A stretch of 64,000 nucleotides of DNA, taken from a bacterium (GTDB lineage Bacteria > UBA8248). Shown here piece after piece: positions 12,161 through 16,314 of this stretch. The notes beneath the pieces were generated by a model. That model did no database searches. It was given only the letters and a program-made list of their open reading frames with translations, and was not told the DNA's origin. Every line of letters begins with the position of its first letter. Position 1 is the first letter of the stretch. The position numbers were made by a program, and so were the translations under genes. The stretch lies in NCBI GenBank assembly GCA_965204535.1, contig CBDBEV010000001.1, forward strand, positions 224,001 to 288,000, given 5' to 3'.

Positions 12161-14488
12161 ATGCCCGACGGGCGAGGTGAAATCGAAAAACGTCACCACA
12201 GTTCCCACTGGGGGGCATTCCGGGCGCACGTGCGTGATGGCCGCATGGTGGGTTTCGAGCCGTTCGCGAAGGACCCGGCGCCCTCTCCCATCCTGGAGTC
12301 CATCCAGGACGCCATTTATGATGAAACCCGCATCTCCCGGCCGATGATCCGCACGGGCTGGCTCGAGCACGGCCCCGGGAAAAACACCGAAGGACGCGGC
12401 GGCGAACCTTTCGTGCCCGTCTCCTGGGAGACGGCCCTAGGATTGGTCGCTGACGAGATAGAGCGCATCAAGACCGAACACGGCAACGAATCCATCTTCG
12501 CGGGTTCATACGGGTGGGCGAGCGCGGGCCGCTTCCACCATGCGAACACTCTGGTGAAAAGGTTTTTCAACTGTTACGGCGGCTTCACGGATCATGTGAC
12601 CACCTACAGCATCGCCGCCGGGTACGTCATCCTCCCCCACGTCATGGGGGATTTTATCTCCTGCGCCGGACACATCACGACCTGGGACAGCATCGCGCAA
12701 GACTCGGGGCTGTTCGTCATGTTCGGCGGCGTTCCCGTCAAGAACGCGCAGGTGGCGGCGGGAGGCGCGGGAGAACACTCCCTGGAGCTATGGCTGGAAA
12801 GGGCGAAGGCGAACGGGGTGGAATTCGTGAACGTAAGCCCCCTGAAAGACGATGCGCCCGATTTTCTGGACGCGCAGTGGATCGCCGTGCGGCCCAATAC
12901 GGACGTGGCGCTCATGCTCGGTCTCGCGCATACGCTTTGGGAGGAGAATCTGCACGACAAGGAATTTCTCGCGCGCTATTGCGTCGGTTTCAAGAAGTTC
13001 GAAGCCTATCTGACGGGCGAAACCGACGGGAGACCCAAGAGCGCGGACTGGGCGGCTCCCATCACGGGAATCGGGGCGGACGTCATTCGAAACCTCGCGC
13101 GACGCATGGCGGGCACACGAACCATGCTCAACACGAACTGGTCGCTCCAGCGCGGGGATCACGGCGAGCAGACGTTCTGGATGACCATCACGCTCGCCGC
13201 CATGCTCGGCCAAATCGGCCTTCCCGGCGGGGGGTTCGGCTTCGGCTACGGGAGCATGGGCGGACGCGGCGAACCGCGTGAGAACATCCCTTCGGTCAGA
13301 ATGAATTTGGGGAAAAACCCGACCGGCAGCTTCATCCCCGTCGCCCGCATCGCGGACATGTTGCTTCAGCCGAACGAGCAATACGACTTCAACGGTGAGC
13401 GCCGCACCTACCCGGACATCCGCATGGTGTACTGGTGCGGCGGCAATCCATTCCACCACCACCAGGATTTGAACCGGCTGGTGAAGGCGTGGCGGCGGCC
13501 CGAAACCATAGTCGTCCACGACCCCTGGTGGACGTCCACCGCGCGCCATGCGGACATCGTGCTGCCCGCCACCACCACGCTCGAGCGCAACGACATCGGC
13601 TCGAGTTCGAGGGATCGCTTCATCCTCGCCATGCACAAGGTGATCGAGCCGGTGGGCGACGCACGACACGATTTCGATATCTTCTCGGAACTGGCCGGGC
13701 GCCTCGGCTTTAAGAGCGCCTTCACCGAAGACCGCGGCGAGACGGAATGGCTCGGACATATCTACGAGGAGGCGCGCCGGAAAGCCGCCGCCCAGGGCGT
13801 GGTTCTCGACACGTTCGAGCATTTCTGGGAGACCGGGCACACCGAAGTCGCCCCGCCGGAGACGCCGCACGTCTATCTGGCCGAATTCCGGGAAGACCCT
13901 GAGAAAAACGCGCTCAAGACGCCTTCCGGGAAAATCGAGATATATTCCGAGCGCATCGCGAGCTTCGGCTACGCAGACTGCCCGCCCCACCCCGCCTGGC
14001 TCGAACCCGTAGAATGGCTGGGAAGCGCACTGGCGAACAAATTCCCGCTGCACCTCATCTCGAACCAGCCGCGCACGAGACTCCACGGCCAGATGGACAG
14101 CGGATCCACCAGCATCAAGAGCAAGATTCAGGGCAGGGAACCGGTGTGGATTCACCCCGAAGACGCCGCCGCGCGGGAGATTCGAGACGGAGATGTGGTG
14201 CGAATCTTCAACGAGCGCGGCGCGATTTTAGCGGGCGCCGTCATCACCGAGGGGCTGCTGCCCGGCGTCATCCAGCTCTCCACGGGCGCGTGGTACGACC
14301 CGCTGGAGCCGGGGAGAATCGGGGCGCTCGACAAGCACGGCAACCCCAACGTACTGACGCCCGACAAGGGAACCTCCAGCCTCGGCCAGGGCCCGAGCGC
14401 GCACAGCGCGCTGGTGGAGATGGAGCGCTACGAGGAAGAGCTTCCCGAGATCACGGCGTTTCAACCCCCATCCTTCATAGAGGCGTAA
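12161..14488 (+). CDS. Mo-bisPGD oxidoreductase, BisC/TorA/DorA (type III) family, no Tat leader
   Basis: SSHWG, SYGWASAG, Ser ligand TYSIAA, GGNPFHHHQD, RLHGQ, HGNPNVLT; RBS GGAGG at 12146. Confidence 0.92.
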   Translation: MPDGRGEIEKRHHSSHWGAFRAHVRDGRMVGFEPFAKDPAPSPILESIQDAIYDETRISRPMIRTGWLEHGPGKNTEGRGGEPFVPVSWETALGLVADEIERIKTEHGNESIFAGSYGWASAGRFHHANTLVKRFFNCYGGFTDHVTTYSIAAGYVILPHVMGDFISCAGHITTWDSIAQDSGLFVMFGGVPVKNAQVAAGGAGEHSLELWLERAKANGVEFVNVSPLKDDAPDFLDAQWIAVRPNTDVALMLGLAHTLWEENLHDKEFLARYCVGFKKFEAYLTGETDGRPKSADWAAPITGIGADVIRNLARRMAGTRTMLNTNWSLQRGDHGEQTFWMTITLAAMLGQIGLPGGGFGFGYGSMGGRGEPRENIPSVRMNLGKNPTGSFIPVARIADMLLQPNEQYDFNGERRTYPDIRMVYWCGGNPFHHHQDLNRLVKAWRRPETIVVHDPWWTSTARHADIVLPATTTLERNDIGSSSRDRFILAMHKVIEPVGDARHDFDIFSELAGRLGFKSAFTEDRGETEWLGHIYEEARRKAAAQGVVLDTFEHFWETGHTEVAPPETPHVYLAEFREDPEKNALKTPSGKIEIYSERIASFGYADCPPHPAWLEPVEWLGSALANKFPLHLISNQPRTRLHGQMDSGSTSIKSKIQGREPVWIHPEDAAAREIRDGDVVRIFNERGAILAGAVITEGLLPGVIQLSTGAWYDPLEPGRIGALDKHGNPNVLTPDKGTSSLGQGPSAHSALVEMERYEEELPEITAFQPPSFIEA

Positions 14489-15880
14489 ATGTCCAGAAAA
14501 TTCTTTGCAGACCATGCCAAGTGGCCCCGTTGCGTTTCGGGCGGGCCATTCCTGTTCTTCAGCGGACAGATGGGGATGCACCCGAAAACGGGGAACATCT
14601 GCACCAGGTACGCCGAAATCGGGGATAAAGGACCCGCCCGGACCAGGAATTACCCCTGGGTCGACAAGATCGAAGCGCCCATCGGCGCGCAGGCCGTCGC
14701 CACCTATGAGGGCGTAGGAGAAGCGCTGGAGGCCAACGGCGGGGGACTGGAAAACCTGCTCCGCTTCCATCTCTATCAGCTCGACAAGCGCTTTTTCCCG
14801 GTCTTCGACAGCATCAGGCGTCATTACGAACCGAAAGCGCCCACGCCGAGCACCGCCGTGGGCATGGGCGCGTTCGACCCGGAACTTACCGTGCGATTCA
14901 ACATCGACGCCATCGCCCTGAACCCCAAGGCGGCGAAAACTCTGGGACAAAGGAAGAAGCATGAAGGCTCGAAGGCGCATTCGGCCGCCGCTCATTTCTC
15001 CCACGTCGTGGGTGCTGGGCCGTATCTTTTCGTCGCCGGCCAGATTCCGACGGATACTTCGAAGCCCGGCTCTCCCCTCATCCGCAACTATCCCGACATT
15101 CCCAAGCGGGGGAGATTCCTCTCCGTCGGCCAGAGCCATGAGGACAGCAGGAACGGCCCCATCGCCGCGCAGACGTGGTTCGTCTACGACCTCATCCGCA
15201 AGCATCTGGAAGGCTCCGGGTCTTCGCTCGAAAACATCCTGAACCTGACCGTATATCTCGGGGACATGCGCGATTTTCCCACCTTCCACCGCATCCACGA
15301 GCGGTTTTTCCCAAAGGACCCGCCGGCTCTCACGGTGATGCAGGTGGCGGAAGTCGGCCACAAGGGGGAGAAGATCGAAATCGAACCCACGGCGCTGATG
15401 GATAAAAGCAAGATAAAGCGCGAGGTGATTCGCGGCGAAGATGGAGCAGGCGCTCAGATGAGTCTGGGCGTCGCTGCGGGCGGCGTGTTGTTCCTCTCGA
15501 ATCTCGTCGGCCTGAACGGAGACAGTGAGCCGATCAGCAAAAGAAGTGAATTGAGGGGGTCGCTTCGCCGGAGACTGCCGAAAGCGTCTTCGCCGGCTGA
15601 GAGAAATGTAGTCTTACAGGGGCTCGCGATTCTCGATCAGATGGAAGACGCGATGAAAGCCGCAGGCGCAGACATGGGCCGGGTGACGCACCTGACGTTG
15701 TTTCTCCAGAACATCGCTCACCTCTCGGCGCTCGAGCCCTTGTTCAGAAAGTATTTCCCGAAACGAAGGCCGGCCTGCACCGCCATTCAGATACCGGAAG
15801 TCTCGCCCGTCGCGGGTACGGAAGTCTCGATGACGGCCATCGGGTGGATAGGCGACGGCGATCCGGAGGTCGTCGCGTAA
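14489..15880 (+). CDS. Protein of three tandem Rid (YjgF/YER057c/UK114) domains
   Basis: Three repeats of (F/L)xxG(Q)...N/R-x-x-x-x-x-Y/F-L...F...P-x-x-T...I-E/D-x-x-A. Confidence 0.82.
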   Translation: MSRKFFADHAKWPRCVSGGPFLFFSGQMGMHPKTGNICTRYAEIGDKGPARTRNYPWVDKIEAPIGAQAVATYEGVGEALEANGGGLENLLRFHLYQLDKRFFPVFDSIRRHYEPKAPTPSTAVGMGAFDPELTVRFNIDAIALNPKAAKTLGQRKKHEGSKAHSAAAHFSHVVGAGPYLFVAGQIPTDTSKPGSPLIRNYPDIPKRGRFLSVGQSHEDSRNGPIAAQTWFVYDLIRKHLEGSGSSLENILNLTVYLGDMRDFPTFHRIHERFFPKDPPALTVMQVAEVGHKGEKIEIEPTALMDKSKIKREVIRGEDGAGAQMSLGVAAGGVLFLSNLVGLNGDSEPISKRSELRGSLRRRLPKASSPAERNVVLQGLAILDQMEDAMKAAGADMGRVTHLTLFLQNIAHLSALEPLFRKYFPKRRPACTAIQIPEVSPVAGTEVSMTAIGWIGDGDPEVVA

Positions 15881-15881
15881 A

Positions 15882-16314
15882 GGGGTTGTTGAAGAAGCAC
15901 TTGGTCAACTTTCGGGATCGTTCGCCGTAGGGACAGGCCCCCGTGCCTGTCCTGTATCGGGGTGAATATGACCAACGGGCGGCCACGGGGGGCCGCCCCT
16001 ACGGTCGTCATATATGGGGTTGTTGAAAAAACCCTGCAATGCCGGAATGATGGCCAAAACCCGAAACCGGGCGGCGGCGCAGGCTCTCGCCTTGAAAAGC
16101 AACCCCCCCTACCCCCCCTTGTCAGGGGGGCAAGAAAAAACAAAAGCCCCTCTACCGGTGGCGGGCGTCGCCTTTTCATACCCCCCTGACAAGGGGGGGT
16201 AGGGGGGGTTGCCTTTATCCCCTTAGGAGAGGGACTTTTTCAACAACCCCCCCAAGGGGGGAGTGAATCTTGCTCATTTATCGGACGAGTCATCCGGGGG
16301 TTTTCAACAGCCCC
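15882..16314. mobile_element. Nested MITE-like element (outer shell with REP pair, inner element 16016-16250)
   Basis: Outer GGGGTTGTTGAA (15882) / TTTTCAACAGCCCC (16301-16314); inner perfect 15 bp TIR at 16016-16030 and 16236-16250; perfect 32 bp inverted repeat at 16099-16130 and 16181-16212. Confidence 0.78.

What the first reader, a model, noticed from the sequence alone, without database searches (positions are those of the whole stretch)
12161..15880. Cytoplasmic BisC-type Mo enzyme coupled to a single-chain, Arg-less triple-Rid protein
Seen: the Mo-bisPGD gene stop (TAA 14488) directly abuts the next ATG (14489). The Mo enzyme has the Ser ligand and SYGW motif but no Tat leader. The 463-aa partner has three Rid domains, and the canonical P-A-R site reads TPST, PALT and PACT. 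Known: Rid proteins are homotrimers with inter-subunit active sites, and this Arg (Arg105 in RidA) is essential for enamine/imine deaminase activity. Inference: this is a fused pseudo-trimer with three non-equivalent pockets and no RidA activity. It may be a ligand-binding, substrate-delivering or product-handling partner of an S-/N-oxide reductase. I know of no described pairing of this kind.
Basis: partly seen in the sequence, partly recalled or inferred. Interest (0 to 1): 0.72.

Follow-up and report, generated by a model that had tools for sequence, protein, structure and literature searches.

The report
Triple-Rid enzyme with relocated arginine
The two genes are real and touch each other, but they sit together in only one genus, so the three-domain Rid protein is likely a separate catabolic enzyme whose 'missing' arginine is predicted to come from a neighbouring helix, not a partner of the molybdenum reductase.

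Summary
Observation confirmed. A leaderless BisC-family Mo-bisPGD gene (TIGR00509 over cut-off) abuts a 463-aa protein with three PF01042 domains. Ser, Leu and Cys stand at the RidA Arg105 site.

The partnership is not supported. The genes are adjacent in 22 of 22 genomes of this genus that hold both, but three upstream genes are equally conserved (20 of 20 loci). Outside the genus, 0 of 69 loci of close relatives have the Mo gene nearby. The usual neighbours there are an Arg105-less single Rid, an M20 hydrolase resembling 5-nitroanthranilate aminohydrolase, and TctC.

'Arg-less' is misleading. An invariant helix Arg110 aligns with chorismatase FkbO Arg162, and Glu297 aligns with the catalytic Glu. 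The predicted model overlays whole chorismatases (Z 27). The helix Arg occurs in 20 of 22 Ser-type Rid domains and 0 of 15 Arg105-type.

Most likely this is a one-pocket enzyme of unknown substrate that a rearrangement placed behind a housekeeping S/N-oxide reductase. Fused triple Rids are already described, and this scan noted similar proteins on three other genomes.

The parts
12161..14488 (+). BisC-family cytoplasmic Mo-bisPGD S/N-oxide reductase gene, 775 aa, no Tat leader
   Evidence: TIGR00509 1081 bits, cut-off 1017.55; PF18364, PF00384, PF01568; Y117/W119/S150 match DMSO reductase Y114/W116/S147
12608..12610 (+). Codon of Ser150, the predicted Mo ligand
   Evidence: Aligns with DMSO reductase S147; invariant in 26 of 26 aligned homologues
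14480..14491 (+). Gene junction: GAGG ribosome-binding-like site inside the Mo gene end, stop codon, then start codon; suggests translational coupling (inferred)
   Evidence: Sequence; GAGG and an abutting or nearly abutting start kept in 20 of 20 genus loci
14489..15880 (+). Single-chain triple-Rid (YjgF/UK114 fold) protein, 463 aa
   Evidence: PF01042 x3; model pTM 0.92; Z 27 to chorismatases
14489..14926 (+). Rid domain 1 (aa 1-146): Ser121 at the Arg105 site, helix Arg110; no Glu at the Glu120 site
14816..14818 (+). Codon of Arg110, the predicted carboxylate-binding arginine (aligns with FkbO Arg162 and Hyg5-type Arg154)
   Evidence: 120 of 120 close homologues; 33 of 35 distant same-register relatives; motif match
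14945..15406 (+). Rid domain 2 (aa 153-306), the most conserved: F170, G184, SHEDxRNGP lid, H267/H270, EVGHKG, Glu297
   Evidence: best solved single-domain match PDB 3LYB, E 1.8e-18
15377..15379 (+). Codon of Glu297 (RidA Glu120 site; Hyg5 Glu334/FkbO Glu338 site), the predicted catalytic acid
   Evidence: 120 of 120; 31 of 35 distant relatives; Hyg5 Glu334 described as the essential acid in PMC7170507
15407..15877 (+). Rid domain 3 (aa 307-463), degenerate, probably structural (inferred)
   Evidence: 15 of 157 columns conserved at 95% or more

Best explanation
The 463-aa protein is a single chain of three Rid domains that is predicted to fold like a chorismatase and likely works as a stand-alone enzyme with one main pocket, while its place behind the BisC-type reductase is likely an inherited, genus-specific gene rearrangement rather than a partnership. 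Shown: three domains; no Arg105; invariant Arg110 and Glu297; linkage to the Mo gene only in this genus. Inferred mechanism: the pocket lies between domains 1 and 2. Arg110, from the domain-1 helix, holds a substrate carboxylate in place of RidA Arg105. Glu297 protonates an enamine, imine or enol-ether carbon, and water or elimination then releases ammonia or another leaving group. The SHEDxRNGP loop closes the site, and domain 3 completes the barrel. Inferred role: a step in the breakdown of an imported amino-aromatic or N-heterocyclic carboxylic acid, with an M20 aminohydrolase and a Ser-type single Rid. The Mo enzyme is likely the family's housekeeping cytoplasmic S/N-oxide reductase. The substrate is not identified.
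For: Linkage. The Mo gene is near the Rid gene in 23 of 23 genus loci, 0 of 69 loci at 45-70% identity (0 of 42 with at least 1.5 kb upstream) and 0 of 10 below 45%. Of 51 phylum genomes, 36 have BisC and 26 have the triple-Rid orthologue. Ten have BisC without it, and the 4 non-genus genomes with both carry them unlinked. In 13 non-genus BisC loci with at least 1 kb downstream, none has a Rid downstream. As a synteny control, the upstream amidase, yhdH and pncC genes are kept in 20 of 20 genus loci, the same as the Mo gene. Other neighbours, in 23 distant loci with at least 3 kb on each side: M20 17, single Ser-type Rid 20, TctC 20. After reduction to 11 loci at under 75% identity the counts are 8, 10 and 10. 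The M20's nearest solved relative is 5-nitroanthranilate aminohydrolase, E 1.5e-39 against 1.6e-18 for the next family. The single Rid has a 75%-identical orthologue in this genome, about 1.8 kb from such an M20, and occurs in 24 of the 26 triple-Rid genomes. Pocket. The model superposes on 5A3K, 4BPS and 5AG3 at Z 27, rmsd 2.8-3.0, with 283-285 residues aligned. FDSIR110 matches FCVGR162 of FkbO, and E297 matches E338/E334. The helix Arg is in 20 of 22 Ser-type and 0 of 15 Arg105-type domains. R110 (33 of 35) and E297 (31 of 35) outlast H267 (8 of 35) in distant relatives.
Against: All 26 phylum genomes with the orthologue also encode BisC. The abutting junction is kept down to 78% identity, so co-expression in this genus is likely. 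A close orthologue of the partner M20 was not found in the phylum: best matches are 42-44% and lie beside a different triple Rid. The 3 marine-relative loci with long flanks (L039, L041, L101) have none of the three partners. TctC genes are very common in Burkholderiales (recalled), so that link is weak. Which domain faces which is inferred from the colinear overlay on chorismatases, and the ligand role of FkbO Arg162 is recalled, not read. A profile comparison with a chorismatase-like sequence found nothing (probability 0.8%). Thirteen of the 22 Ser-type domains are domain 1 of this family; among the other 9, 7 have the helix Arg. In 25 relatives that align in the domain 2-3 register, R110 is kept in only 12. 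H267 and H270 (120 of 120) hint at a second site. No activity was tested.
Confidence: 0.5

Rival explanations
1. The protein keeps RidA-like imine/enamine deaminase activity through the relocated Arg110 and is a general metabolite-damage enzyme. In this genus it is co-expressed with BisC as a small repair operon, with no physical contact and no shared substrate.
For: Y17-, G31- and E120-equivalent residues (F170, G184, E297) are intact in domain 2, and Arg110 is invariant. TIGR00004 scores 104.2, just under the 106.25 cut-off. The coupled junction is conserved in 20 of 20 genus loci. The divergent neighbour resembles PncC, below cut-off.
Against: PMC4433059 and PMC5619798 (passages) treat Arg105 as the determinant of deaminase activity. 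The genome has separate Arg105-type Rid domains. Large invariant lid insertions and catabolic neighbours point to a specific, bulkier substrate.
Confidence: 0.2
2. One reading: the triple Rid is a dedicated partner of the Mo enzyme that delivers substrate or handles product. On present evidence this could only be a recruitment confined to this genus.
For: The genes are adjacent in 22 of 22 genus genomes that hold both. The stop-start junction with GAGG is conserved. All 26 orthologue-bearing phylum genomes encode BisC. In one sister genus a single Rid lies about 4 kb upstream of BisC (3 of 18 BisC stretches).
Against: 0 of 69 distant loci carry the Mo gene. The genes are unlinked in 4 of 4 sister-genus genomes with both, and 10 family genomes have BisC without the orthologue. 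2 of 5 Betaproteobacterial triple-Rid genomes gave no BisC match (these assemblies may be incomplete). Background synteny is equally high.
Confidence: 0.12
3. The protein is non-catalytic: a small-molecule or metal binder (for example through H267/H270 with M324) that buffers or senses an intermediate of the M20/TctC pathway.
For: No Arg105 in any domain. H267 and H270 are in 120 of 120 and M324 in 119 of 120 sequences, at the domain 2/3 interface, which lacks an acid (S447).
Against: The Arg/Glu pair of the domain 1/2 cleft is the most durable feature in distant relatives and matches the catalytic arrangement of chorismatases.
Confidence: 0.15

Closest known systems
3x-RidA proteins (Niehaus et al. 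2015, PMC4433059; example EF_0115)
   Same: Three Rid domains fused in tandem, presumed a covalent trimer (passage read).
   Different: No domain here has Arg105 (S121, L281, C430). The domains are strongly unequal, domains 1 and 2 carry long lid insertions, and TIGR00004 is below cut-off.
FkbO/Hyg5 chorismatases (PDB 4BPS, 5A3K, 5AG3; TIGR04444)
   Same: Single-chain pseudo-trimer with the same domain order (Z 27). A helix Arg on one domain pairs with the Glu120-site acid on the next (R110/E297 against R162/E338).
   Different: 16-17% identity and no TIGR04444 match. The complete pocket is predicted at domains 1/2, not 2/3. FkbO Arg228 is His172 here. No biosynthetic gene-cluster context.
Ser-type and Rid4-Rid7 non-Arg105 Rid proteins, e.g. 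KP1_3112 (PDB 3LYB)
   Same: 3LYB is the best solved sequence match (E 1.8e-18; rmsd 1.3 over 134 residues). It shares the domain-2 insertion and has Ser at the Arg105 site with a helix Arg.
   Different: 3LYB is a single domain of unknown function. Here the two faces of the pocket come from different domains of one chain.
BisC/TorZ-type S/N-oxide reductases (TIGR00509); Rhodobacter DMSO reductase
   Same: Above the family cut-off, with the Ser ligand and Tyr/Trp pair, and no leader, as for cytoplasmic BisC.
   Different: Nothing unusual was found in the enzyme. Only the downstream gene is peculiar to this genus.
Cyanuric acid hydrolase AtzD, Toblerone fold (PMC3758960)
   Same: Another enzyme thought to have arisen by joining three YjgF units (passages); Z 10.1 to 4NQ3.
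   Different: AtzD uses Ser-Lys dyads in the central barrel. Here the conserved residues map to inter-domain clefts, and the overlay is much poorer (rmsd 5.0).

Membership tests
3x-RidA | Three Rid (PF01042) domains in one chain | tested here: met
3x-RidA | RidA-type domains with Arg105 | tested here: not met
   S121, L281, C430; no Arg at these columns among the top residues of 120 sequences; TIGR00004 104.2, below cut-off 106.25
3x-RidA | Enamine/imine deaminase activity | not testable with these tools
   Needs an assay
FkbO/Hyg5 chorismatase | Single-chain pseudo-trimeric YjgF fold | tested here: met
   Z 27.1, 284 aligned residues, model range 19-453
FkbO/Hyg5 chorismatase | Family profile TIGR04444 | tested here: not met
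   Not among NCBIfam matches at E up to 0.1; profile comparison with a chorismatase-like protein gave probability 0.8%
FkbO/Hyg5 chorismatase | Catalytic Glu in domain 3 and helix Arg in domain 2 | tested here: not met
   Those sites are S447 and H270; the Arg/Glu pair is one domain earlier, R110/E297
Rid4-Rid7 subfamilies | Assignment by CDD subfamily footprints | not testable with these tools
   No CDD library available; only the absence of Arg105 was checked
BisC-family S/N-oxide reductase | TIGR00509 above cut-off | tested here: met
   1081.1 against 1017.55
BisC-family S/N-oxide reductase | Ser Mo ligand with Tyr114/Trp116 equivalents | tested here: met
   S150, Y117, W119
BisC-family S/N-oxide reductase | Cytoplasmic, no Tat leader | tested here: met
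   No [ST]RRxF motif; the DMSO reductase match starts at residue 14. Motif check only
BisC-family S/N-oxide reductase | Reduces biotin/methionine sulfoxide or N-oxides | not testable with these tools
   Needs an assay
Conserved Mo-enzyme/Rid two-gene system (proposed) | Linkage conserved beyond one lineage | tested here: not met
   0 of 69 distant loci; 0 of 4 sister-genus genomes with both genes
AtzD/Toblerone hydrolases | Three Ser-Lys dyads in the central barrel | not tested
   No coordinates available; only the overall overlay, Z 10.1

The most novel reading that the evidence does not exclude
Ser-type 'arginine-less' Rid proteins are active enzymes that moved the substrate-binding arginine from strand position 105 to the helix, as chorismatases did. 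This triple-Rid family is then the founding member of an undescribed catabolic module (triple Rid, single Ser-type Rid, NaaA-like aminohydrolase, TctC) for an amino-aromatic or N-heterocyclic acid. That would give a function to a class of Rid proteins now assumed inactive. An added functional tie to the S/N-oxide reductase in this genus is not excluded but has only about 0.1 probability.
Probability: 0.35. Interest if true: 0.6.

Novelty: new variant of a known kind. Interest (0 to 1): 0.33.

Why it matters
The Mo-Rid pairing itself matters little, since it looks like local gene order. The useful result is a testable rule for Rid proteins without Arg105, whose functions PMC4433059 calls completely unknown for Rid4-Rid7. 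Ser at position 105 goes with a helix Arg at the site chorismatases use. If correct, many 'inactive' Rids have a complete pocket, and this family, with its aminohydrolase and transporter neighbours, offers a defined place to look for the substrate.

Tried and rejected
Complex prediction of Mo enzyme residues 12-560 with Rid residues 8-455 gave no answer (score 0.00, controls not folded). It is no evidence either way, and Mo domain IV was cut off to fit the size limit.

Search for longer fused forms (812-2315 aa): none among 7985 candidates scored, which the tool rates as weak evidence.

ESM Atlas gave no result.

Profile comparison of alignment A2 with the chorismatase-like protein of L195 was not significant.

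The promoter scan found 1 site against 0.8 expected; terminator-like hits cluster in a repeat downstream. Neither was used.

P0102 (domains 1-2 followed by an M20-like tail, one short contig) was left out of the alignments as a possible chimera.

Literature: searches for 3LYB + YjgF, acetylornithine deacetylase + endoribonuclease L-PSP + degradation + gene cluster and non-Arg/RidA/Rid proteins/R105S returned 0 papers. In biotin sulfoxide reductase + RidA/YjgF, 1 of the 20 listed papers (of 83) held both terms, a general review (PMC5270733) seen as a listing only. The chorismatase residue search returned only irrelevant papers. The FkbO structure paper is not held.

Rejected: a Tat-exported DMSO/TMAO reductase (no leader, TorA below cut-off), and chorismatase membership.
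Full report
Observation. Both reading frames are as described: 12161-14488 (775 aa) and 14489-15880 (463 aa), with TAA then ATG and a GAGG at 14480. The first passes the curated cut-off of TIGR00509, the BisC family of S/N-oxide reductases (1081 against 1017.55), and fails TorA. Y117, W119 and S150 align with Y114, W116 and S147 of Rhodobacter DMSO reductase, and no twin-arginine motif was found. The second has three PF01042 stretches. AlphaFold2 on a 120-sequence alignment gives pLDDT 92.3 and pTM 0.92. That alignment is the query plus 119 of the 120 listed hits, which found 232; P0102 was left out. The Arg105 column reads S121, L281, C430.

Linkage inside the genus. Titles of close records name Nitrospinota or simply 'bacterium'. 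Among the 23 genomes of the genus, 22 hold both genes and all 22 have them adjacent; G017 (79% complete) has neither. This is not special: in 20 genus loci the upstream amidase, yhdH and pncC genes are also present in 20 of 20, and the downstream amidase in 19 of 20.

Linkage outside the genus. I fetched 157 loci (77 from genomes, 80 from metagenomes) and dropped 55 with only single-domain matches. The Mo gene was found in 23 of 23 genus loci, 0 of 69 loci at 45-70% identity (0 of 42 with at least 1.5 kb upstream) and 0 of 10 below 45%. These loci include duplicates. Of 51 phylum genomes, 36 encode BisC and 26 the triple-Rid orthologue. Ten genomes (90-98% complete) have BisC with no orthologue found. 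The four non-genus genomes with both (G041, G050, G051, G053) carry them on different contigs, with other genes next to each. Of 18 non-genus BisC stretches, 13 have at least 1 kb downstream and none has a Rid there; three, from one genus, have a single Rid about 4 kb upstream. Of five Betaproteobacterial triple-Rid genomes, three have a BisC elsewhere and two gave no match. Points in favour of a link: all 26 orthologue-bearing phylum genomes encode BisC, and the coupled junction persists to 78% identity, so co-expression in this genus is likely.

Usual neighbours. In the 23 distant loci with at least 3 kb on both sides, an M20 hydrolase occurs in 17, a 143-aa Ser-type single Rid in 20 and TctC in 20. 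After removing redundancy the counts are 13, 16, 16 of 18 loci (90% identity) or 8, 10, 10 of 11 (75%). The M20's closest solved relative is 5-nitroanthranilate aminohydrolase (E 1.5e-39). That enzyme removes an aromatic amino group hydrolytically (PMC10306065, passages). The window's genome holds a 75%-identical orthologue of the single Rid about 1.8 kb from such an M20, on the same contig but 1.5 Mb away. Two of its four M20s of this type lie within about 2 kb of a Rid gene. The single Rid is found in 24 of the 26 triple-Rid genomes and in one other. Against this: the best phylum matches to the partner M20 are only 42-44% identical, three long-flank marine loci lack all three partners, and TctC is abundant in Burkholderiales (recalled).

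Anatomy. The model's best structural matches are chorismatases 5A3K, 4BPS and 5AG3 over the whole chain (Z 27, rmsd about 2.9). These are single-chain pseudo-trimers with the same domain order. Rid clefts are built from one face of a subunit and the opposite face of the next (PMC6742747, passages). In chorismatases the helix motif FCVGR162 of the middle domain and Glu338 (Hyg5 Glu334) of the last domain occupy these two faces (sequences). Hyg5 Glu334 is the essential acid (PMC7170507, passages). That Arg162 binds the substrate carboxylate is recalled; the paper was not held.

Predicted pockets. By the same directionality, the domain 1/2 cleft has F103, D107, R110 and S121 facing F170, H172, G184 and E297. 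D107 is in 119 and H172 in 117 of 120 sequences, position 170 is always Phe or Tyr, and the rest are invariant. The domain 2/3 cleft has H267, H270 and M324 but no acid. The domain 3/1 cleft is degenerate. Among 35 distant same-register relatives from a profile search (6577 hits at E up to 0.001, best 150 listed), R110 is kept in 33, E297 in 31 and H267 in only 8. Among 25 that align in the domain 2-3 register, R110 is kept in 12 and E297 in 22.

Covariation. Across 74 Rid domains at under 60% identity, drawn from this genome and the loci, the helix Arg is present in 20 of 22 Ser-type, 0 of 15 Arg105-type and 2 of 37 other domains. Thirteen of the 22 are domain 1 of this family; 7 of the other 9 also have it. 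These domains are related, so the P-values are not independent tests. No distance was measured.

Mechanism. The most likely reading is one catalytic pocket: Arg110 anchors a carboxylate and Glu297 protonates an enamine, imine or enol ether. It would act in the breakdown of an amino-aromatic or N-heterocyclic acid, with the Mo enzyme an unrelated housekeeping reductase (0.5). Rivals are a RidA-like repair deaminase co-expressed with BisC (0.2), a non-catalytic binder (0.15) and a true Mo partner recruited in this genus (0.12).

Comparison. Fused triple Rids are described as 3x-RidA, and about 10% of RidA proteins have Ser for Arg (PMC4433059, passages). Arg105 is held to determine deaminase activity (PMC5619798, passages). 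AtzD is another concatenated YjgF enzyme (PMC3758960, passages). Triple Rids are common: this genome has four. Three earlier scan notes on other genomes reached similar conclusions. I found no paper on this family, on a BisC-Rid pairing or on the helix-Arg swap in searches. No supplements or figures were seen; the sequence logos of PMC4433059 may already show the helix Arg.

Verdict. The feature is real and the proposed pairing is unsupported. The protein is a new variant of a known design. Interest 0.33.

Noticed in passing
window 15881-16260: The spacer after the Rid gene is made of dispersed palindromic repeats. Positions 16086-16260 give 496 blastn hits and 15881-16085 give 175 hits in the genome, resembling a REP/MITE-type element. 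Spacer length varies among genus loci.
   Followed up: partly
G000:C1:1242478-1243797 (L180): A second, 39%-identical triple-Rid paralogue that keeps the helix Arg, Ser, the H-x-x-H and EVGHRG motifs. It lies beside a branched-chain-type ABC transporter, an SDR and a hydrolase, and is present in most genus genomes.
   Followed up: partly
G000:C2:720527-721796 and C2:739198-740436 (L179, L181): Two further triple-Rid genes. One lies next to an aminohydrolase-like M20 and an SsuA-type ABC transporter, and each has one Arg105-type domain. The genome has 20 PF01042 matches.
   Followed up: partly
L178:8463-14884 (G000:C2 about 1770-1777 kb): Cluster of an SsuA-type transporter, an aminohydrolase-like M20, the Ser-type single Rid orthologue and two genes with no NCBIfam match at 1e-20. 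It is a candidate home of the pathway the triple Rid serves.
   Followed up: partly
L185:745-1137, L186, L189: In one sister genus a single-domain Ser-type Rid lies about 4 kb upstream of bisC with five or six genes between; probably coincidence.
   Followed up: partly
P0102: Database protein with Rid domains 1-2 followed by an M20-like C-terminal fragment in place of domain 3; one short contig, possibly an assembly chimera.
   Followed up: no
L024:7533-7539 (G014:C3): One of two copies of the Mo gene in G014 has a frameshift near residue 621, possibly an assembly error.
   Followed up: no
window 3194-24163: The surroundings hold three amidase-like genes, three 3-hydroxyacid-dehydrogenase or oxidoreductase genes, an amidohydrolase, a Rieske-type protein and a class-III aminotransferase. 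This is a region rich in nitrogen-compound catabolism; most labels are from inspection.
   Followed up: no
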